Translations under genes and position numbers: made by a program
NCBI GenBank assembly: GCA_964467385.1
Contig: CAYXQC010000002.1
Coordinates: 1,625 to 65,624 of the forward strand
Length of the DNA: 64,000 nucleotides
Reading direction: 5' to 3'
Source: an uncultured Candidatus Saccharibacteria bacterium
GTDB taxonomy: Bacteria; Patescibacteriota; Minisyncoccia; Phycocordibacterales; CAIZLB01
The notes under the pieces: generated by a model
What the model saw: the letters and a program-made list of their open reading frames with translations, nothing else
The model's database searches: none
Told to the model about the DNA's origin: nothing
In this document: piece by piece, positions 6,941 to 29,031 of the stretch
Position numbering within the stretch: the stretch's first letter is position 1
Layout: every line of letters begins with the position of its first letter

Positions 6941-7185
6941 AGGATTCTAAATGATTCCTTCCAGGGTGGTAAGTATAGGAATTTTGTTGTACCTGCTGAA
7001 AATACTCAAACCTAGATCAACACTTCCAATCGAATTCAGAATATATTTCCTGCCAGATAGCTATCGATCGCAGCTTTTATCTTCGGTACCATATTTTGAG
7101 GAAATGTTTCGAGTAAGGATAATTTTTCCATCTTTGATTAATAAGATATTTACAGTAGCTAGAAGTTGAAATCTTTCTATTTTTA

Positions 7186-7298
7186 GATTATATCAGTTCA
7201 ATTCTCTTTAGTCCTCACATAACAAAACCACCCTTTATTTACAAGGTGGTTTTGTATAAGTCGTTTTTCAGGGGTCACTGTCCGTCTTTTGTTATACC
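7186..7298. repeat. copy A of a ~110-bp structured intergenic repeat (conserved flanks + variable hairpin + extended -10-like TGATATAAT on minus strand)
   Basis: Aligns with 8226..8341 in three blocks: ttatatcagttc.att, a hairpin followed by ttttgtataag, and ggggtca.t.tcc. Confidence 0.75.
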
Positions 7299-7300
7299 CT

Positions 7301-8218
7301 CTAGATCCGAATCTCTTTAGCTGAAGCATATATTTGCCTAGTAGAATCTGCTCCGTTCTTGCTTTCTAGAAAAATCCTGCCGTGAGGAGCGTGGAGCGCG
7401 GCAAGCTCAATGGACTTCTTATATTTGTGAGCAAAGCTGTCAGTCTCGCCTGAAGGCATGTATACGTGAACTACCCTGATATGCTTCCCGAGTCTTGCAA
7501 ACCACTCTCCCAGAATGAAATCGGCCGCTTTCTCATCTTCTACGCCATGAAGTGCGTGGTTAATGTCAAAAGTCATGCCGACATGCTCAAGAACCTCTTC
7601 GGTGCCGATACCCAGTTCAGACGAGACCACTTCAGACACTGTAGAAATCAGCAGTTCCAATTCCTCAGGTGACTGACCCCACGCACCGTCGGACCCCTTC
7701 GTAGGCATATTCTCAATGGCAATCGAAAAGTCTGTCCCGTCATCGATTGATGCCTTGAGGCTTTGGGTAAAAAGCCGCGCGTAGTTTTCAACGACAGTTC
7801 TTCTGACTTCTTCAGGGGCATGTTCAAATACGCCGCTCGAAACATTCGGGGGATGAATTGTGTGAGATTCGCCGCCTAGGGAGCGCGTAAGCTCAAGTTC
7901 CTTTTTAATCCGCTCTCCGTTTGATATCTCAAGAGTCGAATGATCGATCTTCGGGGTTTCACCGTGCATTGAAATTGAGCTTTCGGCATTCTGCTCGCGG
8001 AAGCTTTTTAAACGATCAAGGGAGGACATTACCTCTTCGTCCGTTCTGTTCCTCAGATCAAATTGAACTGCGGGTAAATGCATCTCGTGAGCGAGACCAA
8101 CCTGCTGATCAAGCGGTGCGTTCTCAGCATCCTTCTGCCTCGTACACAGCACAAGACCTAGGCCATCCCTAAGCCTCTCTTTCCGCTCTGAGATATTGGC
8201 AAAACTCTCGTATTTCAT
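7301..8218 (-). CDS. xylose-isomerase-like TIM-barrel (sugar phosphate isomerase/epimerase family) protein; GC-rich, likely horizontally acquired
   Basis: 305 aa with IENMP and FDINHA motifs. GC is clearly higher than in the flanks. The ORF is bracketed by direct repeats A and B. Confidence 0.4.
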   Translation of the reverse strand: MKYESFANISERKERLRDGLGLVLCTRQKDAENAPLDQQVGLAHEMHLPAVQFDLRNRTDEEVMSSLDRLKSFREQNAESSISMHGETPKIDHSTLEISNGERIKKELELTRSLGGESHTIHPPNVSSGVFEHAPEEVRRTVVENYARLFTQSLKASIDDGTDFSIAIENMPTKGSDGAWGQSPEELELLISTVSEVVSSELGIGTEEVLEHVGMTFDINHALHGVEDEKAADFILGEWFARLGKHIRVVHVYMPSGETDSFAHKYKKSIELAALHAPHGRIFLESKNGADSTRQIYASAKEIRI

Positions 8219-8225
8219 ACTGTTG

Positions 8226-8341
8226 AATTATATCAGTTCGATTCCCGTTAGTCCCCTTTCAGCAAAAAGAGCCTTCGTTTCCGGGGCTCTTTTTGTATAA
8301 GCAACTTATCTTGGGGTCAGTATCCAAATTTAATTATACCT
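8226..8341. repeat. copy B of the ~110-bp structured repeat; minus-strand TGATATAAT 9 nt before the ATG of 7301..8218 (leaderless-type promoter)
   Basis: The stem differs from copy A (agagcc/ggctct here, accacc/ggtggt in A) but base pairing is kept, i.e. compensatory change. Confidence 0.75.
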
Positions 8342-8355
8342 ATAGATAAAGGCTA

Positions 8356-9507
8356 CTAATCTCTCCAATCAGTTTTACCCAAAGTCACATAATAGAAAGA
8401 TTTACGCACAATTATAGACAGCACGATCACAACCACAAAAAGCCAGAAACCTGAATCAGCATCCTCAGCCATAAAAATGAATGAGAGCAATAGACCAAGC
8501 GATAAGGTAAGCACATAGATAACCTTAGCCAACCTAAACCACGGCTTAGATTCGAGTGGATTTTGTTTTGTTATTACAGTTTTCGGTACTTCATTATTTG
8601 TAGTGCCGAAATCCATATATGTATCAGGGCTACCATAAAGATCTTCGGCAATTTTTGATCTCTTCTCACCGATGTCCTTTTCAGCGTTATTCGCCTCAGT
8701 GATCTGTCGAACAACCCTCTTCCCTTTGATTCCTAATTCGACACCTGAAACATTCTTTGAAATATCTCCATTATTTTCTATTACAAATGTAGGTAAAATC
8801 TCATCTAAATCGATATCTTCTGATACTGCATTTATTGCTTTTTGTCGGTATGGCAACAACTCTTTCGATAGATTCAACCATTTTGAAAATTGAACTTTCA
8901 AATGTTCAGCTGCTTCATTACCATCTTGGCTTTCCGAATAAATACCAAAATCTGTCTTGTTAAACAAATTTTCAAACGTCTGTATCAAAGCAGACATTAT
9001 CTCTTGTTTTGTTACAATATCAGATTCCATTTTGCTTCGATAAGCTTTTGTTATTTCAATAACATTTTTTGCTTTCGACACCCTGTCTGCGCTAGAAACA
9101 TCATTTTTTTCTACAATTTGATCAGTTAGATTTCTTGTTGCTGTAAAATAATAATTTTCTCCAGTCTTATTAAAGTGGTGTACTAAGTATGCACTCTGCC
9201 AGACAAAGTTTTTTTCTATCTCCTTCCCTAACTCAAACAGTTTATTTAGATTAGTCTGAAATTGATTAACTTTCTCCACCCTATTCCTTTTTTGATCAAA
9301 CTCTCTTTTTGAATCTTCCCCTAGAACTTTTTCAATTTGTTCATCAAAAGTAAAATATAATATTTTTCTAGCTTGTTCTTCGACTGTAAGTTCGTTGTCA
9401 GGTTTTTCGAAGTCGACTTCTTTTTTAATACTATCTTGTATGCGAACAATGTCAGCTATGCTGATATTATCTTTTGATTCATTGAGAGAGTCTTTATTTG
9501 AGGACAT
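8356..9507 (-). CDS. hypothetical protein, Lys/Glu-rich cytoplasmic domain with two C-terminal TM helices
   Basis: 383 aa ORF with no recognisable domain. Confidence 0.45.
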   Translation of the reverse strand: MSSNKDSLNESKDNISIADIVRIQDSIKKEVDFEKPDNELTVEEQARKILYFTFDEQIEKVLGEDSKREFDQKRNRVEKVNQFQTNLNKLFELGKEIEKNFVWQSAYLVHHFNKTGENYYFTATRNLTDQIVEKNDVSSADRVSKAKNVIEITKAYRSKMESDIVTKQEIMSALIQTFENLFNKTDFGIYSESQDGNEAAEHLKVQFSKWLNLSKELLPYRQKAINAVSEDIDLDEILPTFVIENNGDISKNVSGVELGIKGKRVVRQITEANNAEKDIGEKRSKIAEDLYGSPDTYMDFGTTNNEVPKTVITKQNPLESKPWFRLAKVIYVLTLSLGLLLSFIFMAEDADSGFWLFVVVIVLSIIVRKSFYYVTLGKTDWRD

Positions 9508-9692
9508 ATAATATTCATATCTGATAAGTAGTAATTAAATCAATTATCTAACACACAGACAAGTTTGTCTATTTATTACAGTCTTCGAAAAATGATAAAA
9601 ATCTCTAGAAATAGAGGTGGTGTTGATTTTATAAATGACCCATTACATGGTGCACGACTCACTAGTAAAGCTTACTCCTCGCACATATCAAT

Positions 9693-9775
9693 TGGCTGCT
9701 ATAAAAAAATTGACACGGGAGTGTCGTCTTTTTTATCAACTGATCAGGGTCACTGTCCATCTTTTGTCAGGCCAC
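9693..9775. repeat. diverged copy C of the repeat family (hairpin GACAC-GGGA-GTGTC + box GGGTCACTGTCCATCTTTTGT)
   Basis: Carries the box acaaaagatggacagtgaccc (minus sense) shared with copy A; lies just 3' of ORF 9796..10512. Confidence 0.6.
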
Positions 9776-9795
9776 GCTAACCTCCCAGAGAAACC

Positions 9796-10512
9796 CTAGC
9801 TTCTAAATGTTTTTCTATTTAACGCACGACTGTCATCATCCGGCAAAAAACGAAAATGCTCGCTGAAATATGGGTTTTTAGGATATCCGTCATGATTACT
9901 TAGCCTACCAATTAATGGTCTCATTATCCTTGCGGCATACATTACGTAATACTTGGAAGCGTGCTCAACTAGCTGGGTATGGACCGCTAAGTCACTAAGA
10001 CTATTTATCGCTGACAAATCTTCACGATTGTGAAGCACGTGTCCTAATTCATCAATATTGGGTGCAAGCCAAACTCTATGAGGAGGATGGGTTTCGAGAA
10101 TATCTTTTATAATAGTGCTGTAAAATTTTACAACAGGCTCATTTGCAAGCCGACGTTTATCTCCACGAGATAAGAAATCTACAATACTGTATCTATCACC
10201 TTCAGCAAAATCATTTAGAAAAGATATCAACTTAGCTTCGATACTATCGTCATTGAAATTAATTCCCAAGACATTAATCAAATCTTTTAGTTTATGTCCG
10301 TGTGTTTTAAGGTTAACCCCAGACTGCTCAACATTGAGTATTAATTTCATTAGTCTTTCTAATCCCATACTTAGAGCATAAAAGGACTGATAATAGTAGG
10401 CATGACTGGATGATATTTTACGGCTATTTTCAAGACCATTAGTAAGCAGTTCGGCAACAATTGACGCTTCTCTATTGAGTATCTTAAAACGCTCTGTTTT
10501 TAGCGGATCCAT
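9796..10512 (-). CDS. hypothetical protein
   Basis: 238 aa and mostly helical by composition; no confident domain. Confidence 0.45.
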   Translation of the reverse strand: MDPLKTERFKILNREASIVAELLTNGLENSRKISSSHAYYYQSFYALSMGLERLMKLILNVEQSGVNLKTHGHKLKDLINVLGINFNDDSIEAKLISFLNDFAEGDRYSIVDFLSRGDKRRLANEPVVKFYSTIIKDILETHPPHRVWLAPNIDELGHVLHNREDLSAINSLSDLAVHTQLVEHASKYYVMYAARIMRPLIGRLSNHDGYPKNPYFSEHFRFLPDDDSRALNRKTFRS

Positions 10513-10599
10513 ATTACTGAGAATTATATGCTCAACTTTTCTAAATAGCCAATAAAAACTAGCCCGACTGACAACTTATTTAAGTTTTTTTGACCACTA

Positions 10600-11283
10600 C
10601 TATTGGACTCTTATGACGGCCTTTACCTGTCCACATATTCTAAAACCAGTATCTTCATTATCAATTTCCTCATCTTCAAATTCAGCGTTCATTGATCTCA
10701 ATAAATACTTTGAAGAATCACCCAACTCAAATTTGACAATCTTTTTTATTTTAGGCATGCCTTCGTGGACAATAACTGCAACCTGGCCACTTTCAACATT
10801 TACCTGTTTCCGTGCTAAAACTAAATCACCCTCCTTAATCATTGGCTCCATTGAGGCACCTTTAGGTTTTATTAAAAAGTAATCTTTTGGATTTGTGATT
10901 CCGAATGTTTTAGAAGACAAAGGAACACGCTCCATTATTCGATCATCACCCAAAAAGCCATCTGGACCACATTGTGCAGTCGTTCGGTACAAATCAACAT
11001 ATACAACCTCGGATGCAGGGTTATCCAATACTTCAAAAATTCTTTTATCTGGCTGATATCTACGAAGAAAACCTTTATTCTCCAATTGTTCGAGATGGTG
11101 GGCTACCACTTGAGCCCTGTCTTCAATACCCATCTCAGTTCCTATCACTCTTAAGGAAAGCCCTTCTATATTTCCATTATGAGCCTTAATAACCTCTAGC
11201 AGTTTTCTCTGGTGAGGATGTAATTTCATATTGATTCTATTATGCCCTAGACAAGGCAGTATTGCAAATAATATTGTGGACAA
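10600..11283 (-). CDS. LexA/CI-like repressor, S24 peptidase family
   Basis: C-terminal GASMEPMIKEGDLV (Ser nucleophile) and PKIKKI (Lys), with an N-terminal winged-helix HTH. The real start is probably the internal MKLHPHQRKLLEV. Confidence 0.8.
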   Translation of the reverse strand: MSTILFAILPCLGHNRINMKLHPHQRKLLEVIKAHNGNIEGLSLRVIGTEMGIEDRAQVVAHHLEQLENKGFLRRYQPDKRIFEVLDNPASEVVYVDLYRTTAQCGPDGFLGDDRIMERVPLSSKTFGITNPKDYFLIKPKGASMEPMIKEGDLVLARKQVNVESGQVAVIVHEGMPKIKKIVKFELGDSSKYLLRSMNAEFEDEEIDNEDTGFRICGQVKAVIRVQ

Positions 11284-11370
11284 ATGCTATATCGTCCAGA
11301 AATACTTGACAAAGAATTTTAGAGGTATATTCTTGCAGTAACACGTTCCTGCGCTAAAAGCAAAAGCCTC

Positions 11371-11778
11371 GTGACAATATTAACAAATAAATACAAAACA
11401 ATGGGAGGAAAATCATCAGCATCAGGAAAAAGAATAAGAAAGGATAACGACAGTATTGAGTTGGTACCACTATCTCGAATGAATTCGTCAGGTGGAGGGT
11501 CTGGAACAAATAAATCAGACGAAAAACTTCAGCCTGTGTGCACACTGTCTTTTGAAACAGAACTGCCTCAGGAAAAGTCTTTACTTGCAGGTACCCCTCT
11601 CCTTCTCAAGGAAGAGGATGGTATATGGAAAATTACACACCAAGGAAAAGTTATTGCAAACCTCAAGAGAGCACGGTCTGCAATGTTGAAACACTGTCTT
11701 GAAGAAGGTTATCATTACAAAGGAAAGGTAAAAGTAAAAGAAGACACCAAATATGGAGAATTTCGAAGATCATCCTAG
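11371..11778 (+). CDS. hypothetical protein
   Basis: 135 aa, divergent from the repressor gene; overlaps the next ORF by 26 nt, suggesting an operon. Confidence 0.35.
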   Translation: MTILTNKYKTMGGKSSASGKRIRKDNDSIELVPLSRMNSSGGGSGTNKSDEKLQPVCTLSFETELPQEKSLLAGTPLLLKEEDGIWKITHQGKVIANLKRARSAMLKHCLEEGYHYKGKVKVKEDTKYGEFRRSS

Positions 11779-12838
11779 AACGCTGTCTTTTGCAAGCCTT
11801 GAGTGTAATGTCAACAATAAAGACTGGGAGCCATTTGTGTCTCCTACTGAAACCTCACAAATACAAGAAGTTTGCTCTGAGGAATCCGTCAATCACATCA
11901 GTTGTAAAAATCCAGATGTCGCTCTCTACATTGAAGACGTACAGGGTTTAGAACTTGATGTTAATTTTGATCAAACTCTTCTTCCAAAGCTACCCAAAAT
12001 GATTCATACTTTGGAAAAAAGCTTCATCTGGTCAGACCCATCAAATATCGAGGGTGACGCCATCAGTATCTCTTTGGGAGATATATTCACCAACCCTCCA
12101 AGAAAAGTTAGTGGTATATTGCGTGCTCCAAAAAGATTGAATTTAAATAAAAAAATACTTCAATCTCCAATGTTCCTGCAGAAAACTGTAATTTTAAACA
12201 TGTCTGCCCAAGACGTTTTAATAGAAAGCTTGTGGATGCAACAAAATAATATATCTATATATTCATCTCTGTACCAATTAGGTTTTAGGTTCGCAACAAC
12301 TCCAAACTTTTCAGTTTTTGCTGGCGAATGTCCGTTAGGACATAGGATAAACCAAAAGAAGAGTCTTGTTTTTGGAAAAGGATTACAAAAAGCTGGTATT
12401 ACAGCAATACCTCACGTATACATAATAAATGACAGTCACCTTGAAGCATACATCACATACTTAAAAAGATTTCCGACAATCAAAACAATTATAATGAACT
12501 GTACACTGCAACGAAAAAGCCCGCTCGAGATTCAACATGTACATAAGATTATTTCGAGATTGATTTTAGAAAGAAAAGATCTTCATATAATTCTGCAAGG
12601 TATAAACATTAAGGATGCAAGGTATTTTTGCGAGTTTGAAGAAAATTTACACTATATGGTTTCAACCGCACACTACAATGCTGTCGTACGAAATGAGAAC
12701 AAATACGGTAATGGAAAATTAGAAACGATCAGAGGTTCTTCTAAAAATAGAGGTGACTTGATAAAAGCAAATACTCATGCGTATGCGGAATTCATTGAAA
12801 ATGTCTGTGTCCCTATTTACCGAAACAATATAGGTTGA
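11753..12838 (+). CDS. hypothetical protein (island cargo)
   Basis: 361 aa, no recognised domain. Confidence 0.45.
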   Translation: MENFEDHPRTLSFASLECNVNNKDWEPFVSPTETSQIQEVCSEESVNHISCKNPDVALYIEDVQGLELDVNFDQTLLPKLPKMIHTLEKSFIWSDPSNIEGDAISISLGDIFTNPPRKVSGILRAPKRLNLNKKILQSPMFLQKTVILNMSAQDVLIESLWMQQNNISIYSSLYQLGFRFATTPNFSVFAGECPLGHRINQKKSLVFGKGLQKAGITAIPHVYIINDSHLEAYITYLKRFPTIKTIIMNCTLQRKSPLEIQHVHKIISRLILERKDLHIILQGINIKDARYFCEFEENLHYMVSTAHYNAVVRNENKYGNGKLETIRGSSKNRGDLIKANTHAYAEFIENVCVPIYRNNIG

Positions 12839-12848
12839 GCGGAAAACT

Positions 12849-13352
12849 CTACTTCAAAAAGTCCCACCTTCCTTTGTAATCTTCCGCTATCGGCATATCA
12901 AGCTTGTATTCACAGCCTTTTTTACCGAGCATGAAAGACCTCAACTTAGAATCATTACGAGTATCCTTTCCGCTCAACCAGTATTTGTGAGACTCCTGAA
13001 TGAACTTGGCTACAACCGCACTAGGCACGATATAGAAGTCAAAAGAGTGAGTGCTTTGCAGGATACTTACAAAGCAGTAGAAGAGGGTTGGATCATTAAT
13101 TGCTTCGTGTTTATCTCCCATTCTCCAATGAGCCTCTACATGACCAAAATCTGCAGATATATATGAATGGTTGTCGTAATGAGTCTTAACCTCAAGTTTG
13201 TACATGTTCTTCGTTTCAGGGTGCGAAAGGAGTATGTCTACACTTTTTGTATTTCCTAAGGTCATGTTTGCGTCGTACCCTCGAAGTGCGAGCTGGGACA
13301 GTACAGCAAACTCACCTGCAAGCCCTATTTGATTTTTAGATATGAATGACAT
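12849..13352 (-). CDS. PD-(D/E)xK nuclease-fold protein (Hjc/NERD-like)
   Basis: Motif string GLAGEFAVLSQLALRGY...VDILL...KLEVKT, which reads as a D...E-x-K arrangement. Confidence 0.45.
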   Translation of the reverse strand: MSFISKNQIGLAGEFAVLSQLALRGYDANMTLGNTKSVDILLSHPETKNMYKLEVKTHYDNHSYISADFGHVEAHWRMGDKHEAINDPTLFYCFVSILQSTHSFDFYIVPSAVVAKFIQESHKYWLSGKDTRNDSKLRSFMLGKKGCEYKLDMPIAEDYKGRWDFLK

Positions 13353-13386
13353 GGAGATATTTTATCATGCTCTAACACTTTTGAAT

Positions 13387-13965
13387 TTACCGCGTGCTTC
13401 CGTTCCAATACCTCGCATTTACTTCACCTTGGTTACAAATAACAACCGAATTATTAACTGTGTGAGTAATCGGGCTAAAAGCCGTACCATCATCGGTTGT
13501 AACCTTGGACCATGAGATTATTACTACCTGTCCAGCTTTAACATCAAATGGATTCCTTGTTCTAAATGGTGGTTTATTAAAATTCCATCCATTTCCACCA
13601 TTAACTCCCACCATGCAGTTACTCCAATCTGTGCTCTCAAGGTTTGTTATGTGAATTCCACTACCCCCAGTCTGAACGCGAACTTTTAAGTCGGAAGTAC
13701 TTGAATTTGAAGAAGGGACAGAAGAATGACTTGATGAGCCGGATTTTGAGCCTGAAGCTGAGAAGAGTCCTAAAAGCAGGAATGATCCAAATATTACAGC
13801 AAATGCTGTAAGGACAAGTCTTTTACTATCGTTCTTTGGTCGACTTCCATGTAAAGAGAAGCTCCTCATCGGTATTTTGATAGTTGATTGACAATAAGGA
13901 CACTTAGTCGCAAGCGCAGATATTTCCTTTATGCAAAATGGACACTTTTTCGTCTCTTCGTTCAT
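13387..13965 (-). CDS. zinc-ribbon (CPFC...CPYC) membrane protein with Ser-rich linker and extracytoplasmic domain
   Basis: N-terminal CxxC x2, one TM helix, then an SGSKSGSSSHSS linker. Confidence 0.5.
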   Translation of the reverse strand: MNEETKKCPFCIKEISALATKCPYCQSTIKIPMRSFSLHGSRPKNDSKRLVLTAFAVIFGSFLLLGLFSASGSKSGSSSHSSVPSSNSSTSDLKVRVQTGGSGIHITNLESTDWSNCMVGVNGGNGWNFNKPPFRTRNPFDVKAGQVVIISWSKVTTDDGTAFSPITHTVNNSVVICNQGEVNARYWNGSTR

Positions 13966-14240
13966 GGTTTTAAAATTTAGCGTTTAAAACCTAGAGTGTA
14001 GGAAACAGAAATCCTACCCCTAGGTGACCACGAGGGTCTGCGCCAGTTTCCCGATGCAACGCTGAATAACGTCCTAAGAGTAGGGTTTCTGTTATTCAGC
14101 GATTTTATGACCATACCTAGAGCCGAAGCAGTAGGGTTAGGTCGCCTATTTAGTTGTAGCTATACTTTACTGTATTTTAAGATAATAGTGAAGGATCTTA
14201 ATATACAGAGAAATTTAATATTGGTAATATTTAATTACCA

Positions 14241-15257
14241 ATGAATCAAAACACATATAAAAGTTTGGAAGATTTTATTAATGGTTTCAAAAGAGAATTT
14301 GGAAGCATCTATAATGATGAAATAAAACATATCAGAGCAATCAATATAAAGCCAAAAAGAAATGGCCTTTACTACCAAAGCCAGTTTCTGGATCTAACCA
14401 ATATACTTGAAAAAGAAAAGTCAAAGACGAGTAAATCAATGATTTTTATGAACATTGATGATGTTATTGCTGAAGAAATTCCAACACTAAATATTGAACC
14501 ATTAAAGAGCGCAGGGAGAAAAATGAGAATTGAAGCTAGTAATTTTTCGATTCTACTCTTAACAGATAAGTTTCAAGAGTTTACTAAACTTTCAAGAAAA
14601 CTACTGAATCTACCTGACGGGGGTTGCAAAGATATAGACGAGCGAGAAACTTATTTTAAGAAATGGGCGTCACACCTATTTCAAGTCAAAATTTTGAAAA
14701 CAGAACATGATATGGCAAGTACATACAAATTATTCAATCTTCCATTAAGATTATTTCTTTCTAGAAATTCTGACTTTGATCACAAAACTTTCGAACAACA
14801 ATTTATGTTGGAAAGAATGGCTTATGACTATATAACACTGGATAAACCTTTTTATTCAGCTGAACTTTTTAATGATAGAAACCAAGATTCTTGTGAACTG
14901 AGACTACCGTCATTAAAACCAGAAAAAATGTTTAATGCAGGAGTTGGGATTGGATTAGTTGCATACCACGAGACAACTAAAGCGGATCTGAAACTTCAAA
15001 TAGACAAAGTCTGGCCAACAATTGAAAATTACCTTAAAAGAACACCTGATAGACCAAAAGAGCAGAAAGAACCTGATCTTGATTCCATGAAAGATAGATG
15101 GACAGCTTACCAACTGCACAAATTACACAGAATGAACTATCAGAAAATTGCCACGATACTAGGAAAAAGCGTCTCTCATTGCCGTAAAATGGCTTCAGAC
15201 TTGAGCAAAGAAGTTAAAAAACTTACAAACAAAAACGCTACTACAAGCAAAAAATAA
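14241..15257 (+). CDS. hypothetical protein with C-terminal HTH (sigma-70 region-4/resolvase-like)
   Basis: 338 aa; the C-terminal stretch YQKIATILGKSVSHCRKMASDL looks like an HTH. Confidence 0.45.
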   Translation: MNQNTYKSLEDFINGFKREFGSIYNDEIKHIRAINIKPKRNGLYYQSQFLDLTNILEKEKSKTSKSMIFMNIDDVIAEEIPTLNIEPLKSAGRKMRIEASNFSILLLTDKFQEFTKLSRKLLNLPDGGCKDIDERETYFKKWASHLFQVKILKTEHDMASTYKLFNLPLRLFLSRNSDFDHKTFEQQFMLERMAYDYITLDKPFYSAELFNDRNQDSCELRLPSLKPEKMFNAGVGIGLVAYHETTKADLKLQIDKVWPTIENYLKRTPDRPKEQKEPDLDSMKDRWTAYQLHKLHRMNYQKIATILGKSVSHCRKMASDLSKEVKKLTNKNATTSKK

Positions 15258-15405
15258 ACTCTCACCAAAAATACTCCATCTTTTGTCATGATGCCCTCAT
15301 GGTATTTCCATACCATGATTATGTCTTCTAAATCCCCAATCGAAACAATAAATATAGCAACGGAAAAAGCAGTCGAACTGCTTGCGGATATTTTTATTGC
15401 GCTGA

Positions 15406-15726
15406 TTGACCACAAGCACAGGCAAAATCTTAATACTAAAAATAAAACGAATAATGAAAACGAAAATCCAACAAACGAATAATGAATTTATTCCAAAAGA
15501 AGATACGACCTACTATTGCACTAGCGATATTGGTCTTACTGCATATTTGATCTACAAGGACCACAAACTTTCCTGTATTCAATACAGCGATGAAAAGCTC
15601 ATTTTTATACTTGAAAGCAATATGTGCACCTATGACGACATCGAGATTTACAAAGGAGAAAAAGAACAGCAAGAAATAATTGACTATATTAAAAACATAA
15701 ACGCTATACATGCACATGCAGAATAA
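15406..15726 (+). CDS. small hypothetical protein
   Basis: 106 aa ORF directly upstream of, and overlapping, the AAA ATPase gene. Confidence 0.3.
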   Translation: MTTSTGKILILKIKRIMKTKIQQTNNEFIPKEDTTYYCTSDIGLTAYLIYKDHKLSCIQYSDEKLIFILESNMCTYDDIEIYKGEKEQQEIIDYIKNINAIHAHAE

Positions 15727-16822
15727 CCCTGATGACAACACTGTAAAACCTATGGAAAAGTTAGTAGGTGAACTTACAGATAATCTAGTTGATACAGACT
15801 CAAGAAACACGGCAATAATCGACTATAAACTTACGTCCTTGAAAGAACTTATGGAAACCGAGTTTGACGCAATTCAATGGGTAGTAGACAGACTTATCCC
15901 CGCTTCAGGTTTAATTGCTTTGTCGGGGGCACCTGCCTCATACAAGACGTGGTTAGTTCTAGATATGGCACAGAAAATTGCTTCTGGTACCCCTTTGTTT
16001 AATAGATTCCAAACAAAGCAGACAGGTGTTCTTTTGGTAGACGAAGAAAATGGTGACCGACTACTTCAAATAAGATTCAAAAAGATTGGAGATAGATTTG
16101 ATTTGCCTATTTATACACTTTCATTTAAATACTTCAAACTAACAAATGACAATGTGAAGAAAATAATACGAGTCGCCAAGAAAAAAGAAATCGGACTGAT
16201 TATATTTGATTCTCTGGTTCGAATTCACGAAGAGGATGAGAACAGTGCAATAGCAATGGCTAGCGTCTTCAGCCTACTACGAAAAATTACAAATGAAGGA
16301 ATAACCGTCATATTCACCCACCACCATAGAAAGAAAGGAAATAATCAGTCTGGTGGATCACAGGAAATGAGAGGATCTTCAGATATCTTAGCTTCTCTAG
16401 ATTGTCACCTGTCAGTAGATAGCGAAAAGGGAGAAAACTCTGTTAAGGTTACTCAGAACAAATCTCGTTATGCGGAAGAAATTGGCAGTTTCACCTTAAA
16501 TGTTATCAAAGACGGAGAGAATTTAAGTTTTGAAATTGATGGAGATATTGAAGAACAGCAAAGTAACAAATCAATCGTTGAAGAAGCTATTGTACACGCA
16601 CTTGCTCTCAATACCGAGCTTTGCAAGACAGACATCCTGAGACTACTGAAACAGGACGGTATAAAAGTCGGAAACTCAACACTTCTAAACACAATAAAAA
16701 GAATGGTAAAGAAAGGTGTCATACAAGAGAAACAAGGAGAGAAGAATACAACTTTATGTTCATTGGTAAAGCCCGAAGAATCACAGCCAAAACAGTCAGT
16801 TAAAAATACCAACACTATATAG
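15710..16822 (+). CDS. RepA-like AAA_25/RecA-fold ATPase with C-terminal winged helix (mobile-element replication/primase-helicase loader type)
   Basis: Degenerate Walker A SGAPASYKT, Walker B LLVDEE, and a C-terminal wHTH-like region. Confidence 0.65.
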   Translation: MHMQNNPDDNTVKPMEKLVGELTDNLVDTDSRNTAIIDYKLTSLKELMETEFDAIQWVVDRLIPASGLIALSGAPASYKTWLVLDMAQKIASGTPLFNRFQTKQTGVLLVDEENGDRLLQIRFKKIGDRFDLPIYTLSFKYFKLTNDNVKKIIRVAKKKEIGLIIFDSLVRIHEEDENSAIAMASVFSLLRKITNEGITVIFTHHHRKKGNNQSGGSQEMRGSSDILASLDCHLSVDSEKGENSVKVTQNKSRYAEEIGSFTLNVIKDGENLSFEIDGDIEEQQSNKSIVEEAIVHALALNTELCKTDILRLLKQDGIKVGNSTLLNTIKRMVKKGVIQEKQGEKNTTLCSLVKPEESQPKQSVKNTNTI

Positions 16823-16946
16823 GGGAGAATTTTAACTCACTCATATACAAAGGGGGTGCATAACCTCTGTTGGTTTAAGTGTGCCTTGAAAGGACGCTTA
16901 AAGAGAAAGGTTACTTAATTATAAGTCAGTAAAAAACATTAAATAT

Positions 16947-18551
16947 ATGAAAAATAAAAATATTGGATTGGCATACTGCCGAGTTTCTACAGAGGATCAG
17001 ACAGATGGTATCTCACTCGACTATCAAGAACAGGAGTGTAAAAAAGCCGCCTACGCAGACGGGTACACAGATGTAATAGTTATTAGAGACGAAGGAAAAA
17101 GTGGTAAAGATCTATTTAGAAAAGGAATACAAGAAGTGATTGAACTAGCAAAGAAAAGAGAGTTCTCAACTATGTATGTTACCAACTCGGACCGCCTTGC
17201 TCGTAGCGTAGAGGCTCACGCTTTTGTTAGAACCATACTTAAAAATAATGATGTAAAACTCAAATACTTAAACGGTCAATCTTCAGGAGAAGATGCCAGT
17301 TCTATATTGACCGATAACATGTTTGCAACTATTAACCAGTTTTACAGTGATACAACCCGAGAGAAAACGATTCAAGCAGTAGACACAAAAGCACGAGCAG
17401 GCTACTTCCCTGCCAATGTACCCGCAGGATATATGAACGTAGAAAACCCAGACAAGAACTGTGAGAAAGTTGCGAAGAGAATTATTGTTCCACACCCAAA
17501 GACTGCCCATCTTGTAACGGAAGCTTTTAAGTTATATGCAACAGGTCAGTACAATGTATTTCAGTTAAATGATATGTTACACGACAAAGGCTTAGTGAGT
17601 AGTTCGGGTAAAAAATTAGTCCCTGCCATGTTCTATAAGATGCTCAAGAACAGACTGTATCTTGGAGAAATTCATTGGAGAGACATACACGTAAAAGGAA
17701 AGCATCAACCACTTATTGATGAAGCAACTTTTGATCAGGTACAGAAAATTGCAAACAACAATACAAACGGACGTTGCCGAAGACGTAAGTATAAGTGGCT
17801 TCTGAACGGGTATATCTTCTGCCCTATTCACAATAGAAAATTTACTGCAGAGTGGCACTTAGGAAAGCGTATTGCTTACTACCACTGTACTAATCCAGGA
17901 GGATGCGGAAAATATATTGAGAAGTCCAACTTAGAAGGACAAGTTGCAGACAAGTTTAGACTACTAGAATTTAGTGACGACTTTGTAGAATCAATCGTTG
18001 CAAAGGTTAAACAGGTTTATCAAGACAGGAAAGATAATTATCAATCTGAATACAGAGGTCTATTAAACAAAAGAAATGCATGTGAGATTAAGATTAGATC
18101 TGCTGAAGATAGATTAGTTGACGGATCACTTAGTAGCGAAGCCTGTAAAAGAATCACGGACGACATGAGAACATCTATTTCTAAAGTAGATTCACAGATA
18201 AACAAACTGCAAACTGTGCAGGATATAAACATAGACGTATTAGGCGAAATTCTGGCGTTTACGAAGAATTTATACAAAACATATATTCAGGCACCGGAAG
18301 ACTATCAAAAGCACATGATTGGATGTTTCTTTGATGGTTTTGAAGTAAAGGATGGAGTTATAATAAAAGAGCGATTGACCCCACTATTTCAGGTTTTATT
18401 GGATGCAAATACCATGTTTATGAAAGGTGTCAAAAACAAAATATCCCCTGAAATAAAGGGATATTCTGAAGTTATAATAACTAATTTAATGGGTGCCCAG
18501 AGAGGATCGAACTCTCGTAACCGGATCCACAGACCGGGGCTTTACCACTAA
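16947..18551 (+). CDS. large serine recombinase (integrase)
   Basis: N-terminal resolvase domain YCRVSTEDQ...SLDYQ, a recombinase domain, and a zinc ribbon (CPIHNRKF...HCTNPGGCGKY). The last ~60 nt are antisense to tRNA-His. Confidence 0.85.
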   Translation: MKNKNIGLAYCRVSTEDQTDGISLDYQEQECKKAAYADGYTDVIVIRDEGKSGKDLFRKGIQEVIELAKKREFSTMYVTNSDRLARSVEAHAFVRTILKNNDVKLKYLNGQSSGEDASSILTDNMFATINQFYSDTTREKTIQAVDTKARAGYFPANVPAGYMNVENPDKNCEKVAKRIIVPHPKTAHLVTEAFKLYATGQYNVFQLNDMLHDKGLVSSSGKKLVPAMFYKMLKNRLYLGEIHWRDIHVKGKHQPLIDEATFDQVQKIANNNTNGRCRRRKYKWLLNGYIFCPIHNRKFTAEWHLGKRIAYYHCTNPGGCGKYIEKSNLEGQVADKFRLLEFSDDFVESIVAKVKQVYQDRKDNYQSEYRGLLNKRNACEIKIRSAEDRLVDGSLSSEACKRITDDMRTSISKVDSQINKLQTVQDINIDVLGEILAFTKNLYKTYIQAPEDYQKHMIGCFFDGFEVKDGVIIKERLTPLFQVLLDANTMFMKGVKNKISPEIKGYSEVIITNLMGAQRGSNSRNRIHRPGLYH

Positions 18552-18563
18552 GCTATGGGCACC
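18490..18563 (-). tRNA. tRNA-His (anticodon GTG) with encoded G-1
   Basis: Cloverleaf read by hand: G-1 + GTGCCCA, D-arm GCTT/AAGC, anticodon loop CTGTGGA, T-arm GAGAG-TTCGATC-CTCTC, acceptor TGGGCAC + C73. Position 31:39 is a T:T. Confidence 0.8.
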
Positions 18564-27938: not shown

Positions 27939-28460
27939 TTACTTAAATTTTACAATTGAAAAAACAACTCCCAATCTCCACACTCCCCCATTTTCCACGA
28001 TCTCCGCACGCTCAATATTCACAGCAAATGGAAGCGATTCAAGATATCCAACAAACCGAAGCACGTTCGACCATGAGCCAGAGACAGTCATATCAAGTTT
28101 AAGTAAATCCTTATTTTGTGTTGCAAGTGAATCGACATCAATAGTGTCTATCGAGTTTGTGACATACTGAAGTGACAATCTGCTCGCAGAGTTTTCAATA
28201 ATAGATACAACATCAATAGCACCATCTTTTGTAACAAAAAACTTGCTGAGTTTTTTCTTGTCTTCAGATGTAGTATCAGCTGATTTTGTAAGGTCTTGCT
28301 CGTGAGCCAGTCGAAGCTCTTTTGTTCGAAGTTCATCTTTTAGGGTATTAGTTCTATCAATCAAACCAAAAATCTGATCATACGCATAAGCATATCCACC
28401 TATCGTAACCAGTGCGATAATAATAGAGAGTGTAAGTGATGTTGAGGTCTTAAGATTCAT
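27939..28460 (-). CDS. pilO: type IV pilus assembly protein PilO-like
   Basis: 173 aa with an N-terminal TM and a coiled coil, in the third position of the pilM/N/O order. Confidence 0.55.
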   Translation of the reverse strand: MNLKTSTSLTLSIIIALVTIGGYAYAYDQIFGLIDRTNTLKDELRTKELRLAHEQDLTKSADTTSEDKKKLSKFFVTKDGAIDVVSIIENSASRLSLQYVTNSIDTIDVDSLATQNKDLLKLDMTVSGSWSNVLRFVGYLESLPFAVNIERAEIVENGGVWRLGVVFSIVKFK

Positions 28461-29031
28461 GTGATTTTGTTGTAGTGCTTACAATCAATTTCATTGAAAA
28501 AGTAATATCTTTATCTTTGGCAAAATTAGACAAAGGGACCGTCACACTGCTGAAAAAAGTGTCGATCTTCATTTTTTCCTGAAAAGAGACAAGGTCTTTT
28601 CTAGTTTTTGCCACACCTGAAAGGTCGATAATCAAGGGAGATACAGGAATTTCAGCAGAAACAGTCTGGCTTGGTGTAAAAACTAAACCCCGGAGAGCAA
28701 TACCGTCTGGCTTCGCTGCCACAATACCTTCGATTATCGGCAAAATTGGTTTTTGGTTAGCAAAGAGATTGAGTGCGGATATTGAATCAGAAATATCACG
28801 AAGATCTGCAACTGAAGTATCTGTATTTTTGGCACCCAATTCACTTTCAACAACAGCCAGTCGACTATGGATTTCGCTATATTTTCCGTAAGAAATAATA
28901 AAAGTTGGCAACAAAAGAACTGCACTTATGAAAATAATAGCTGCGAGACCTAAGAGTGAAACGACAAGAATCCGTTTTCGGTATTCCTTAACAATTTTTT
29001 GTCGATGTTCTTCAGTTAAAAGATGGAGCAT
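28450..29031 (-). CDS. pilN: type IV pilus assembly protein PilN-like
   Basis: 193 aa with a single N-terminal TM, directly after pilM. Confidence 0.6.
   Translation of the reverse strand: MLHLLTEEHRQKIVKEYRKRILVVSLLGLAAIIFISAVLLLPTFIISYGKYSEIHSRLAVVESELGAKNTDTSVADLRDISDSISALNLFANQKPILPIIEGIVAAKPDGIALRGLVFTPSQTVSAEIPVSPLIIDLSGVAKTRKDLVSFQEKMKIDTFFSSVTVPLSNFAKDKDITFSMKLIVSTTTKSHES

What the first reader, a model, noticed from the sequence alone, without database searches (positions are those of the whole stretch)
7186..9775. Family of ~110-bp structured 3'-gene elements; a GC-rich foreign gene is bracketed by two direct copies
Copies A (7186..7298) and B (8226..8341) align over their whole length in three blocks: ttatatcagttc.att, a hairpin followed by ttttgtataag, and ggggtca.t.tcc..ttatacc. 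The hairpin stems differ between the copies (accacc/ggtggt versus agagcc/ggctct) but pairing is preserved, so there is selection for structure rather than sequence. A third, diverged copy C (9693..9775) keeps the 21-nt box ACAAAAGA(C/T)GGACAGTGACCC plus a hairpin, and a 13-nt piece of the box recurs at 15276. Each copy lies immediately 3' of a consecutive minus-strand gene.

On the minus strand each of A and B ends in an extended -10 (TGATATAAT). In B this sits 9 nt before the ATG of the high-GC TIM-barrel gene 7301..8218, which implies a leaderless transcript; in A the same promoter is orphaned. This is the pattern expected when a gene cassette inserts at a recombination/terminator-promoter module and duplicates it. 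It is reminiscent of, but not identical to, integron attC or MITE-mediated cassette boundaries.
Basis: seen in the sequence. Interest (0 to 1): 0.7.

Follow-up and report, generated by a model that had tools for sequence, protein, structure and literature searches.

The report
Gene-cassette junction repeats at tRNA-His
The repeats are the junctions between gene cassettes stacked downstream of the tRNA-His gene of a Patescibacteria (CPR) bacterium; each joins a probable serine-recombinase attachment site to a terminator and a leaderless promoter, which makes the array resemble an integron built on a different enzyme.

Summary
A (7187-7298) and B (8227-8340) are homologous ~115-nt elements on the minus strand. 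C (9747-9771 plus a hairpin) shares only the first box.

They belong to a real family. I found 28 distinct copies in related Patescibacteria contigs, arranged as arrays of one-gene units 0.5-1.2 kb long.

Each element has four parts:
- box 1, GGTATAAY-N7-GGAYAGTGACCCC
- a short trailer ending in TTATAC
- a terminator hairpin
- box 3, GGACTAAAGAGAATYGAAC-TGRTATAAT, which lies 6-11 nt before the next ATG

In two related genomes the first element directly follows tRNA-His, and the tRNA 3' end occupies the place of box 1. In the window a large serine recombinase (16947-18551) abuts tRNA-His (18491-18562). The far end of its ~8.7-kb element is copy C. The same recombinase/tRNA-His arrangement occurs in five other genomes, and three of them carry a box-1-like motif at the far end of the island.

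Best reading: A, B and C are hybrid attachment-site junctions left by serial integration at tRNA-His. The TIM-barrel gene is one cassette. Promoter A now faces a decayed NUDIX gene.

The recombinase link and cassette mobility are inferred, not shown. I file this as a new variant of tRNA-anchored integration islands, with integron-like architecture.

The parts
7187..7298 (-). Element A: junction between the TIM-barrel cassette and the NUDIX pseudogene. Box 1 / P arm 7271-7298 (GGTATAACAAAAGACGGACAGTGACCCC); trailer 7254-7270 (TGAAAAACGACTTATAC); terminator hairpin 7222-7255; box 3 with extended -10 at 7187-7214 (GGACTAAAGAGAATTGAACTGATATAAT).
7023..7180 (-). NUDIX pseudogene driven by the A promoter. 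The start codon is ATG->ATA at 7178-7180. Residues 1-30 and 114-144 of the intact L004 NUDIX survive, in three different frames.
7301..8218 (-). Cassette cargo: 305-aa xylose-isomerase-like TIM-barrel protein (PF01261), 48.8% GC. Only 12 homologs were found, and those whose contigs were examined lie in Patescibacteria element arrays.
8227..8340 (-). Element B: junction between the 383-aa unit and the TIM-barrel cassette. Box 1 / P arm 8313-8340 (GGTATAATTAAATTTGGATACTGACCCC); trailer 8295-8312; terminator hairpin 8263-8295; box 3 with extended -10 at 8227-8254. The -10 ends 8 nt before the ATG at 8218.
8356..9507 (-). 383-aa ORF with no Pfam match, lying between C and B.
9680..9771 (-). Element C: candidate attR of the recombinase element. 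P arm 9747-9771 (CCTGACAAAAGATGGACAGTGACCC); then TGATCAGTTGAT plus terminator hairpin 9701-9736; then a degenerate box 3 at about 9680-9700.
9747..18490 (.). Integrated ~8.7-kb element. Genes: 238-aa ORF 9796-10512(-); LexA/CI-like S24 repressor 10600-11283(-); 361-aa ORF 11753-12838(+); LOOT RNA 14026-14143(-); AAA_25 protein 15710-16822(+); large serine recombinase.
16947..18551 (+). Large serine recombinase, 534 aa (Resolvase + Recombinase + Zn-ribbon domains). Its 3' end overlaps tRNA-His.
18440..18490 (-). P' arm of the recombinase element next to the tRNA: ATTAAATTAGTTATTATAAC followed by a terminator hairpin. ATTATAAC is an inverted copy of the outer motif of box 1.
18491..18562 (-). 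tRNA-His (GTG), the anchor of the island. Collinearity with the close relative L004 ends exactly at its 3' end.

Best explanation
A, B and C are junction modules between units integrated one after another at the 3' end of the tRNA-His gene of a Patescibacteria genome.

Each module is composite:
1. A ~48-bp site shaped like a large-serine-recombinase attP. It reads GGTATAAY-N15-[AC]CCC-N11-13-TTATAC. The outer GTATAA motif is inverted on the two sides. The ...AGTGACCCC part copies the acceptor end of tRNA-His.
2. A bidirectional intrinsic terminator.
3. A conserved 19-mer plus an extended -10 that starts a leaderless mRNA for the next ORF.

A mobile unit would consist of trailer + terminator + promoter + ORF + GGTATAAY/box 1. 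In circular form the two ends would make one complete site. Recombination with the tRNA-His end then inserts the unit next to the tRNA, pushes older units outward and recreates a tRNA-adjacent site.

Units come in two sizes:
- autonomous 7-11-kb islands or elements that carry the recombinase, an AAA_25 protein, a CI/LexA-like repressor and LOOT RNA
- 0.5-1.2-kb one-gene cassettes, presumably moved in trans

In the window, reading outward from the tRNA, the order is: recombinase element | C | 383-aa unit | B | TIM-barrel cassette | A | NUDIX pseudogene.

Shown: the family, its anatomy, the tRNA-His anchoring, the recombinase adjacency, the motif at the island ends, and cassette permutation.
Inferred: that the recombinase acts on these sites, where the crossover lies, and that one-gene cassettes are mobilised.
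For: **Family**
- nhmmer finds full-length copies in L004, L008, L009-L014 and L015-L021, giving 28 distinct copies.
- They form one-ORF arrays with 600-1200-nt spacing, all in the same orientation as the genes.

**tRNA-His anchor**
- The first element directly follows tRNA-His in L004 and L009/L012, and in L021 and L017. There the tRNA 3' end replaces box 1.
- Box 1 scores best against tRNA-His among 22 tRNA 3' ends.
- Window and L004 share 88-91% nucleotide identity. They are collinear up to exactly the tRNA-His 3' end and again from inside NUDIX, but share nothing in between (11.4 versus 5.4 kb).
- The order tRNA-Leu, tRNA-His, island, PAP2-BacA-FolD-SecE-NusG is shared with L009/L012.

**Recombinase**
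- The 534-aa large serine recombinase overlaps tRNA-His in the window.
- Homologs of 54-61% identity do the same in L022, L024, L027, L028 and L029.
- It resembles the TP901-1 and A118 integrases.

**Far ends of the islands**
- All carry the same motif: window C; L022 TGTATAAAAACATTCGGACAGAGACCCC; L024 GTTATAATAGTGTTCGAATACTGACCCA; L027 TGTATAATTAAAGTTGGATAGCGACCC.
- The tRNA-adjacent arms all carry an inverted (A/T)TTATAAC about 12 nt from ACCC.
- L022 holds a 139-aa one-gene cassette between two such motifs, with two recombinase elements in tandem.

**Junction position**
- The L008-type TIM-barrel cassette is identical from AGTGACCCC onward behind two different upstream cassettes (L015, L018). 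The contigs overlap by exactly k=127.
- The 121-aa cassette keeps its own trailer whether it is first after the tRNA (L009) or second (L021).

**Terminator and promoter**
- The stem is 97.6% paired, with 3 covarying pairs.
- In the 16 copies whose start could be read, the ATG lies 6-11 nt after the -10.
- Leaderless starts are common across the genome.
Against: - No recombination was observed. I found no circular form and no precise empty site.
- Contigs with arrays (L004, L008, L009, L015-L021) show no recombinase, though most are short.
- Large serine recombinases normally do not recombine attL-like sites without a directionality factor. Repeated insertion at the same tRNA therefore requires the P' arm to serve as a B' arm, which is untested.
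- Left/right symmetry of the proposed site is limited to the outer 6-7 nt.
- No clear P arm was found in L026, L028 or L029.
- Box 3, about 65 nt from the proposed crossover, is the best-conserved block and mimics the tRNA-His 3' end in inverted orientation. The model does not explain this.
- In L003 a hairpin+box 3 copy lies between liv genes with no tRNA-His within the 8 kb held.
- The homology break between window and L004 on the NUDIX side lies inside box 3 (GAAC|TG). That would also fit homologous exchange.
Confidence: 0.6

Rival explanations
1. The elements are portable terminator-promoter insulators. Cassettes are exchanged by ordinary homologous recombination between the ~115-nt repeats, for example after DNA uptake. 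Box 1 has some other role, and the nearby serine-recombinase element is only a neighbour using the same tRNA.
For: - The repeats offer ~115 nt of 65-95% identity, which is enough for RecA.
- No recombinase is seen in the array contigs.
- The window/L004 homology break on the NUDIX side lies inside box 3, not at GACCCC.
- The consensus hairpin+box 3 is shared by cassettes with unrelated ORFs (L016 versus L017).
Against: - Box 1 is conserved at the far ends of recombinase islands in genomes that otherwise lack the hairpin/box 3 family (L022, L024, L027).
- The tRNA-His end substitutes for box 1.
- Two independent cassette comparisons place the junction at ...GACCCC.
- Arrays were found adjacent to tRNA-His wherever enough contig was available.
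Confidence: 0.22
2. It is a chromosomal integron: the elements are attC sites recombined as folded single strands by an IntI tyrosine recombinase.
For: It shows arrays of short, same-orientation, one-ORF cassettes separated by 110-120-nt repeats with a variable central hairpin.
Against: - There are no RYYYAAC/GTTRRRY inverse-core/core pair.
- The two ends carry GGTATAA in direct, not inverted, order.
- Single-strand folds of either strand show only the central hairpin.
- No tyrosine recombinase is among the ORFs scanned between 5.1 and 21.7 kb.
- Every cassette has its own promoter.
Confidence: 0.02
3. It is a MITE-like non-autonomous transposon that has spread into intergenic regions.
For: - It is a short, repeated, intergenic element carrying an outward promoter and a hairpin, as Correia/ERIC-type elements do.
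- Contigs break inside it.
Against: - There are no terminal inverted repeats beyond the TATA core and no target-site duplication.
- Only three copies occur in 64 kb, all in one island and all in the gene orientation.
- Copies sit strictly one per gene boundary.
- tRNA-His substitutes for one end.
Confidence: 0.03
4. Box 1 through the hairpin encodes a small RNA or a 3'-UTR signal. GGTATAAY would act as a -10, and the transcript GGAYAGUGACCCC...terminator would mimic the tRNA-His acceptor end. Conservation would then reflect RNA function.
For: - TATAAY is nearly invariant.
- It lies about 8 nt before GGAYAG, the same spacing as in leaderless genes.
- A terminator follows about 45 nt later.
Against: - There is no Rfam match.
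- No conserved structure exists outside the terminator.
- The conserved dinucleotide before TATAAY is GG rather than the TG of an extended -10.
- The trailer is the most variable part.
- This does not explain the tRNA-His anchoring or the recombinase islands.
Confidence: 0.06

Closest known systems
Tycheposon-type tRNA-anchored genomic islands of Prochlorococcus (Hackl et al., bioRxiv 10.1101/2020.12.28.424599)
   Same: - Site-specific integrases act at tRNA 3' ends; in that study a minority are large serine recombinases.
- Elements combine integration and replication modules with cargo.
- Later arrivals push earlier ones deeper into the island.
- Partial tRNA repeats are scattered through the island.
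   Different: - Here the host is a CPR bacterium, the target is tRNA-His, and the enzyme is a large serine recombinase.
- The repeats are not bare partial tRNAs but ~115-nt composite modules (site + terminator + leaderless promoter).
- Many units are single ORFs of 0.5-1.2 kb without any mobility gene.
Integron cassette arrays (IntI, attI, attC)
   Same: - Arrays of one-ORF cassettes lie in one orientation, each ending in a conserved recombination-site-like repeat.
- Insertion appears to favour the anchor-proximal position: the 191-aa cassette sits ahead of the 121-aa cassette in L021 compared with L009.
- Cassette order differs between strains.
   Different: - There is no IntI tyrosine recombinase and no attC architecture or single-strand fold.
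- The anchor is a tRNA gene rather than attI.
- Each cassette brings its own promoter and terminator instead of relying on Pc.
Large-serine-recombinase attP/attB sites of temperate phages (A118, TP901-1, Bxb1, phiC31)
   Same: - The recombinase has the same domain set and matches TP901-1 and A118 integrases.
- The proposed site is ~48 bp, with inverted outer motifs around a short shared core.
- The recombinase gene abuts the junction.
   Different: - The site is inferred, not mapped.
- The P' arm seems to imitate the B' arm, which would allow repeated insertion at the same tRNA.
- Non-autonomous one-gene units carry the site.
Intrinsic terminator followed by an extended -10 promoter for a leaderless mRNA
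   Same: - A GC-rich stem flanked by an A-tract and a T-tract.
- TGnTATAAT lies 6-11 nt before the ATG, as at many other genes of this genome.
   Different: The 19 nt upstream of the -10 (GGACTAAAGAGAATYGAAC) are far more conserved than a promoter requires. They read as the reverse complement of the tRNA-His T-loop/acceptor.

Membership tests
Integron attC / integron | Inverse core RYYYAAC at the 5' end and core GTTRRRY at the 3' end, pairing as R''/R' | tested here: not met
   The ends read GGTATAAY ... TGRTATAAT, a direct repeat. No RYYYAAC/GTTRRRY pair is present.
Integron attC / integron | The whole site folds as an imperfect single-strand hairpin with extrahelical bases | tested here: not met
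   DNA and RNA folds of both strands give only the central 11-13-bp hairpin. Box 1/box 3 pairing is not conserved: A has GAGG and L008_1970 has AAAG opposite CCCC.
Integron attC / integron | An adjacent IntI-type tyrosine recombinase with attI and Pc | tested here: not met
   Pfam scans of 20 ORFs between 5.1 and 21.7 kb found no Phage_integrase domain. The only recombinase is a serine recombinase.
MITE / small non-autonomous transposon | Terminal inverted repeats and a target-site duplication | tested here: not met
   The inverted-repeat search finds only the terminator and the internal GTATAA pair; there is no flanking duplication.
MITE / small non-autonomous transposon | Dispersed copies at unrelated loci in both orientations | tested here: not met
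   Three copies occur in 64 kb, all within 2.6 kb and all on the gene strand. Arrays elsewhere have the same polarity.
Large serine recombinase (integrase) protein family | N-terminal resolvase catalytic domain + recombinase domain + zinc-ribbon domain, ~450-700 aa | tested here: met
   PF00239 scores 7.5e-26, PF07508 1.2e-11 and PF13408 0.0019 in a 534-aa protein. It matches TP901-1 (3bvp) and A118 (4kis, 6dnw) integrases.
Large-serine-recombinase attachment sites (attL/attR flanking an integrated element) | The recombinase gene lies next to one junction, and a short core is shared by both junctions and the target | tested here: met
   The gene overlaps tRNA-His in 6 of 7 loci examined. ACCC is shared by the tRNA end (GGGCACCC|ATTAAA) and by C (AGTGACCC|TGATCA).
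Large-serine-recombinase attachment sites (attL/attR flanking an integrated element) | attP of ~40-55 bp with imperfectly inverted half-sites around a central dinucleotide | tested here: inconclusive
   The outer G(G/T)TATAAT motif is inverted on the two sides, about 31 nt apart, with the centre near TG|AC. The inner half-site positions are not symmetric.
Large-serine-recombinase attachment sites (attL/attR flanking an integrated element) | Recombination catalysed at the site, with a mapped crossover | not testable with these tools
   This needs an in vitro or in vivo assay, or reads across excised circles and empty sites.
tRNA-anchored integration island (tycheposon-like) | A hypervariable island starts at the 3' end of a tRNA gene and is conserved in position between genomes | tested here: met
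   The window/L004 break lies exactly at the tRNA-His 3' end. Synteny with L009/L012 holds on both sides.
tRNA-anchored integration island (tycheposon-like) | Repeated partial copies of the tRNA 3' end inside the island | tested here: met
   Box 1 (GAYAGTGACCCC(A)) resembles the tRNA-His ends TAGTCGCCCCA and TAGTCACCC. tRNA-His is the top hit among 22 tRNA ends, although the margins are modest.
tRNA-anchored integration island (tycheposon-like) | An element carrying both an integrase and a replication module | tested here: met
   The recombinase, an AAA_25 protein and a CI/LexA-like repressor lie in the same order in the window and L022. AAA_25 also lies next to the recombinase in L024.
Intrinsic (Rho-independent) terminator | A GC-rich stem-loop followed by a T-run, with pairing kept across copies | tested here: met
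   Across 17 copies, 97.6% of cells are paired, 3 of 10 pairs change on both sides, and 0 of 500 shuffles reach the observed score. TTTTG follows the stem. Actual transcript ends were not measured.
Extended -10 promoter for a leaderless mRNA | TGnTATAAT with the start codon at about the expected transcription start | tested here: met
   In the 16 copies whose start could be read, the ATG lies 6-11 nt after the -10. The same layout occurs at many other genes of the window. No transcription start site was measured.
Any Rfam RNA family | Match at the gathering threshold | tested here: not met
   No hit overlaps A, B or C, nor the arrays in L004 and L009.

The most novel reading that the evidence does not exclude
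Patescibacteria of this clade have a serine-recombinase counterpart of the integron. One-gene cassettes would each carry an attP-like site, a terminator and a leaderless promoter. A tRNA-His-specific large serine recombinase supplied by a resident 8-kb element would capture and reshuffle them at the tRNA-His 3' end, which plays the role of attI.
Probability: 0.35. Interest if true: 0.85.

Novelty: new variant of a known kind. Interest (0 to 1): 0.68.

Why it matters
- **Gene exchange in CPR bacteria.** These organisms have tiny genomes, and how they exchange genes is poorly understood. A cassette platform at tRNA-His would be a concrete mechanism. The cargo here is mostly nucleoside/nucleotide salvage and modification: NUDIX, 5'-nucleotidase, deoxyribosyltransferase, phosphorylase, kinase, CYTH, GNAT and the TIM-barrel protein.
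- **A non-integron route to cassette arrays.** It would show that integron-like arrays can be built with a serine recombinase and a tRNA anchor, each cassette being a self-contained transcription unit.
- **Candidate tools.** It yields predicted recombinase/attB/attP sets that could be tested as genome-engineering tools.
- **LOOT RNA.** It gives a genomic home to this orphan RNA motif.

Tried and rejected
- **Strict box 3 pattern with the window's TGATATAAT.** It gave one hit in GTDB genomes (L003) and none in JGI metagenomes or IMG/VR. The common variant is TGGTATAAT. A relaxed pattern then found 7 metagenome contigs.
- **Box 1 and box 3 patterns in viral contigs.** No hits in four scans, so no free phage or plasmid form was found.
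- **A real tRNA gene or tRNA-like fold in A or B.** ARAGORN and Rfam found nothing there.
- **attC-like or MITE-like architecture.** Rejected.
- **A precise empty site for the TIM-barrel cassette or for the recombinase element.**
  - The closest relative, L004, has replaced the whole island.
  - Contigs of the same strain (L001, L002, L030) are identical to the window.
  - They break by k=127 overlap at ...CTG|ACCCC. On the tRNA side the break is 14 nt beyond the tRNA end, so they give no evidence for a tRNA-His|TIM variant.
- **A P arm in L026, L028 and L029.** None was clear.
- **The simple terminator scan.** It missed the A and B hairpins because their loops exceed 8 nt.
- **Literature.** Searches found no description of such arrays in Patescibacteria and nothing about the source assembly.


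Full report
**1. The observation**

On the minus strand, which is the gene strand, A (7187-7298) and B (8227-8340) align end to end. Identity is 82 of 127 columns, and an A/B profile scores them at nhmmer E=3e-32 and 5e-37. The blocks are:
- box 1: GGTATAAY-N7-GGAYAsTGACCCC
- a variable trailer ending in CTTATAC
- a hairpin whose stems differ (CCACC/GGTGG in A, AGAGCC/GGCTCT in B) but pair in both
- box 3: GGACTAAnGrGAATyGAAC-TGATATAAT

The 21-nt box occurs exactly at 7272-7292 and 9747-9767, against 0.00 expected. C shares only that box, an unrelated terminator hairpin and a degenerate box 3. No other copy exists in the 64 kb. The piece near 15276 is a 14-nt exact copy of the start of C's box.

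**2. Organism and promoter context**

Protein homologs and the single GTDB hit place the window in Patescibacteria/Paceibacterota, a CPR lineage. Many ORFs across the window lack a Shine-Dalgarno sequence and have TGnTAnAAT 6-10 nt before the ATG. The leaderless start implied at the TIM-barrel gene is therefore the norm for this organism.

**3. A real family arranged as cassette arrays**

An A/B profile finds full-length copies in contigs that carry relatives of the flanking DUF2231 gene (L004) and of the TIM-barrel gene (L008, L009-L014). A relaxed box 3 pattern adds seven metagenome contigs, L015-L021. In total there are 28 distinct copies.

The copies separate consecutive same-strand ORFs at 600-1200-nt spacing. 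L008 has four copies in 5.2 kb; L015, L018 and L021 have three each. In the 16 copies whose start could be read, the ATG lies 6-11 nt after the -10.

Cargo includes NUDIX, UMPH-1 5'-nucleotidase, CYTH, nucleoside deoxyribosyltransferase, a PNP/UDP phosphorylase, a P-loop kinase, GNAT, inositol monophosphatase, a glycosyltransferase and a binding protein.

Across 17 copies the hairpin is 97.6% paired, with compensatory changes at 3 of 10 pairs. A-tracts and T-tracts flank it, so it is a bidirectional intrinsic terminator. No fold spans the whole element and there is no Rfam match.

**4. The anchor is tRNA-His**

In L004 and in L009/L012 the first element follows tRNA-His(GTG) directly. The same holds for tRNA-His genes cut by the contig ends of L021 and L017. 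In all these cases the tRNA 3' end occupies the place of box 1. For example:
- L009 tRNA: ...GATAGTCGCCCCAATTAACGCAATTATACAAAACC
- type-II box 1: GGATAGTGACCCCAAATACTTTTAATATACAAAACC

Among 22 tRNA 3' ends, tRNA-His gives the best match to box 1.

L004 is 88-91% identical to the window in the flanks. It is collinear up to exactly the tRNA-His 3' end (window 18491) and again from inside NUDIX (window 7114). The 11.4 kb between them in the window shares nothing with the 5.4 kb in L004. The order tRNA-Leu, tRNA-His, island, PAP2-BacA-FolD-SIMPL-SecE-NusG is shared with L009/L012. A, B and C therefore lie in a hypervariable island anchored at tRNA-His.

**5. A tRNA-His-specific large serine recombinase**

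Window 16947-18551 encodes a 534-aa large serine recombinase whose 3' end overlaps tRNA-His. It is preceded by an AAA_25 protein, LOOT RNA, a 361-aa ORF and a LexA/CI-like repressor.

Homologs of 54-61% identity abut tRNA-His in L022, L024, L027, L028 and L029. The same gene order recurs in L022.

The far ends of four such islands carry a box-1-type motif:
- window C: CCTGACAAAAGATGGACAGTGACCC
- L022: TGTATAAAAACATTCGGACAGAGACCCC
- L024: GTTATAATAGTGTTCGAATACTGACCCA
- L027: TGTATAATTAAAGTTGGATAGCGACCC

The tRNA-adjacent arms all read ACCC-N~12-(A/T)TTATAAC, which is an inverted copy of box 1's outer motif. Box 1 plus the trailer therefore looks like a ~48-bp attP with its centre near TG|AC|CCC. 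ACCC is the core it shares with the tRNA.

L022 also holds a 139-aa one-gene cassette between two box 1 motifs, and a second recombinase element in tandem.

**6. Where units join**

The L008-type TIM-barrel cassette is identical from AGTGACCCC through its trailer, hairpin, box 3 and start codon. It is preceded by a GNAT cassette in L015 and by a deoxyribosyltransferase cassette in L018. The contigs overlap by exactly 127 nt, which marks an assembly-graph branch.

The 121-aa cassette keeps its own AT.AA.C trailer whether it is first after the tRNA (L009) or second, behind a 191-aa cassette (L021).

Both cases place the junction between box 1 and the trailer. A unit is therefore trailer + terminator + promoter + ORF + box 1.

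In the window this fits well. B's trailer, hairpin and box 3 are all atypical, and the TIM-barrel gene they precede has 48.8% GC, against 39.8% in its homologs.

**7. Reading of the window**

From the tRNA outward the order is:
- recombinase element (18490-9747)
- C
- 383-aa unit
- B
- TIM-barrel cassette
- A
- NUDIX

NUDIX is intact in L004. In the window it has ATG->ATA and an internal deletion with frameshifts. That explains the 'orphaned' promoter.

**8. Mechanism, and its weak points**

The model is serial attP x attB-type integration at tRNA-His, with autonomous elements supplying the recombinase and one-gene cassettes moved in trans. It rests on anatomy and comparison only.

I found no circles and no precise empty sites. 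Array contigs show no recombinase. Repeated insertion requires the P' arm to function as a B' arm.

Box 3 is unexplained. It is the best-conserved block, and its reverse complement matches the tRNA-His T-loop and acceptor (B: GTTCGATTCCCGTTAGTCCCC against L009 tRNA-His GTTCGATTCCCGATAGTCGCCCC). tRNA-His is the top hit for every variant tested. It may be a relic or a B'-type half-site.

Homologous exchange between the repeats remains a serious rival.

**9. Comparison and novelty**

Integron and MITE membership fail on their defining features.

The closest known kind is the tRNA-anchored island built by successive integrations, as described for tycheposons. The differences here are the CPR host, tRNA-His as target, a large serine recombinase, and ~115-nt composite junctions bounding one-gene, self-transcribed cassettes.

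Literature searches found no description of this.

Verdict: new variant of a known kind, interest about 0.68.

Noticed in passing
window 14026-14143(-); L022 7335-7456(-); L024 7641-7752(-); L026 2957-3071(-): The orphan LOOT RNA motif (RF03000) lies inside every serine-recombinase element checked for it, at 63-85 bits. It appears to be a conserved component of this Patescibacteria integrative element family.
   Followed up: partly
window 7195-7214 and 8235-8254 (box 3); all array copies: The conserved 19-21 nt upstream of the cassette -10 is the reverse complement of the tRNA-His T-loop/acceptor. tRNA-His is the best match among 22 tRNA ends for every variant tested. B's version matches a foreign (L009-type) tRNA-His better than the window's own. 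Its meaning is unexplained.
   Followed up: partly
window 7023-7180(-): NUDIX pseudogene: ATG->ATA, an internal deletion and frameshifts. The gene is intact in the 88%-identical relative L004 (1195-1632).
   Followed up: yes
window 15275-15288(-): An exact 14-nt copy (TGACAAAAGATGGA) of the start of C's P arm lies inside the recombinase element, 5.5 kb from C; 0.07 matches expected by chance. It could be an accessory site or chance.
   Followed up: partly
whole window, e.g. 6428, 12849-13352, 24480, 28450-29031, 29069, 47512, 49691: Many genes have TGnTAnAAT 6-10 nt before the ATG and no Shine-Dalgarno sequence. Leaderless expression looks like the default in this CPR genome.
   Followed up: partly
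L017 1135-2363; L021 about 1330-1375: An IS3-family insertion sequence sits in the hairpin of an element in L017. A back-to-back pair of its inverted repeats (GTACCCCAGAAAGTGGACAC...) remains in the tRNA-adjacent element of L021.
   Followed up: no
L003 6142-7295 (GTDB MAG Tobar12.5m-G42): A hairpin+box 3 copy with a degenerate box 1 precedes a methyltransferase and a DUF1653 gene. These sit between a periplasmic binding protein gene and a LivH-type permease gene, with no tRNA in the 8 kb held. It may be a cassette outside a tRNA-His context.
   Followed up: partly
L022 11420-11446(+), L028 11438-11464(+), L029 6593-6619(+): A box-1-like string (GTTATAATAAnAGAGCGATACnCCCC) lies in inverted orientation inside the C-terminal coding region of the recombinase genes, about 110-190 nt from the tRNA-His end.
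   Followed up: no
L001 start (window 8317), L008 start, L030 ends (window 8191 and 18603): Metagenome contigs break by exact 127-nt overlaps at ...G|ACCCC or ...|AGTGACCCC of box 1, and 14 nt past the tRNA-His end. The repeats and strain variants fragment assemblies at exactly these sites.
   Followed up: yes
L022 33-1655 and 10001-11563: Two serine-recombinase elements lie in tandem in one 790-kb Patescibacteria contig, separated by an IS (rve) and a one-gene cassette.
   Followed up: partly
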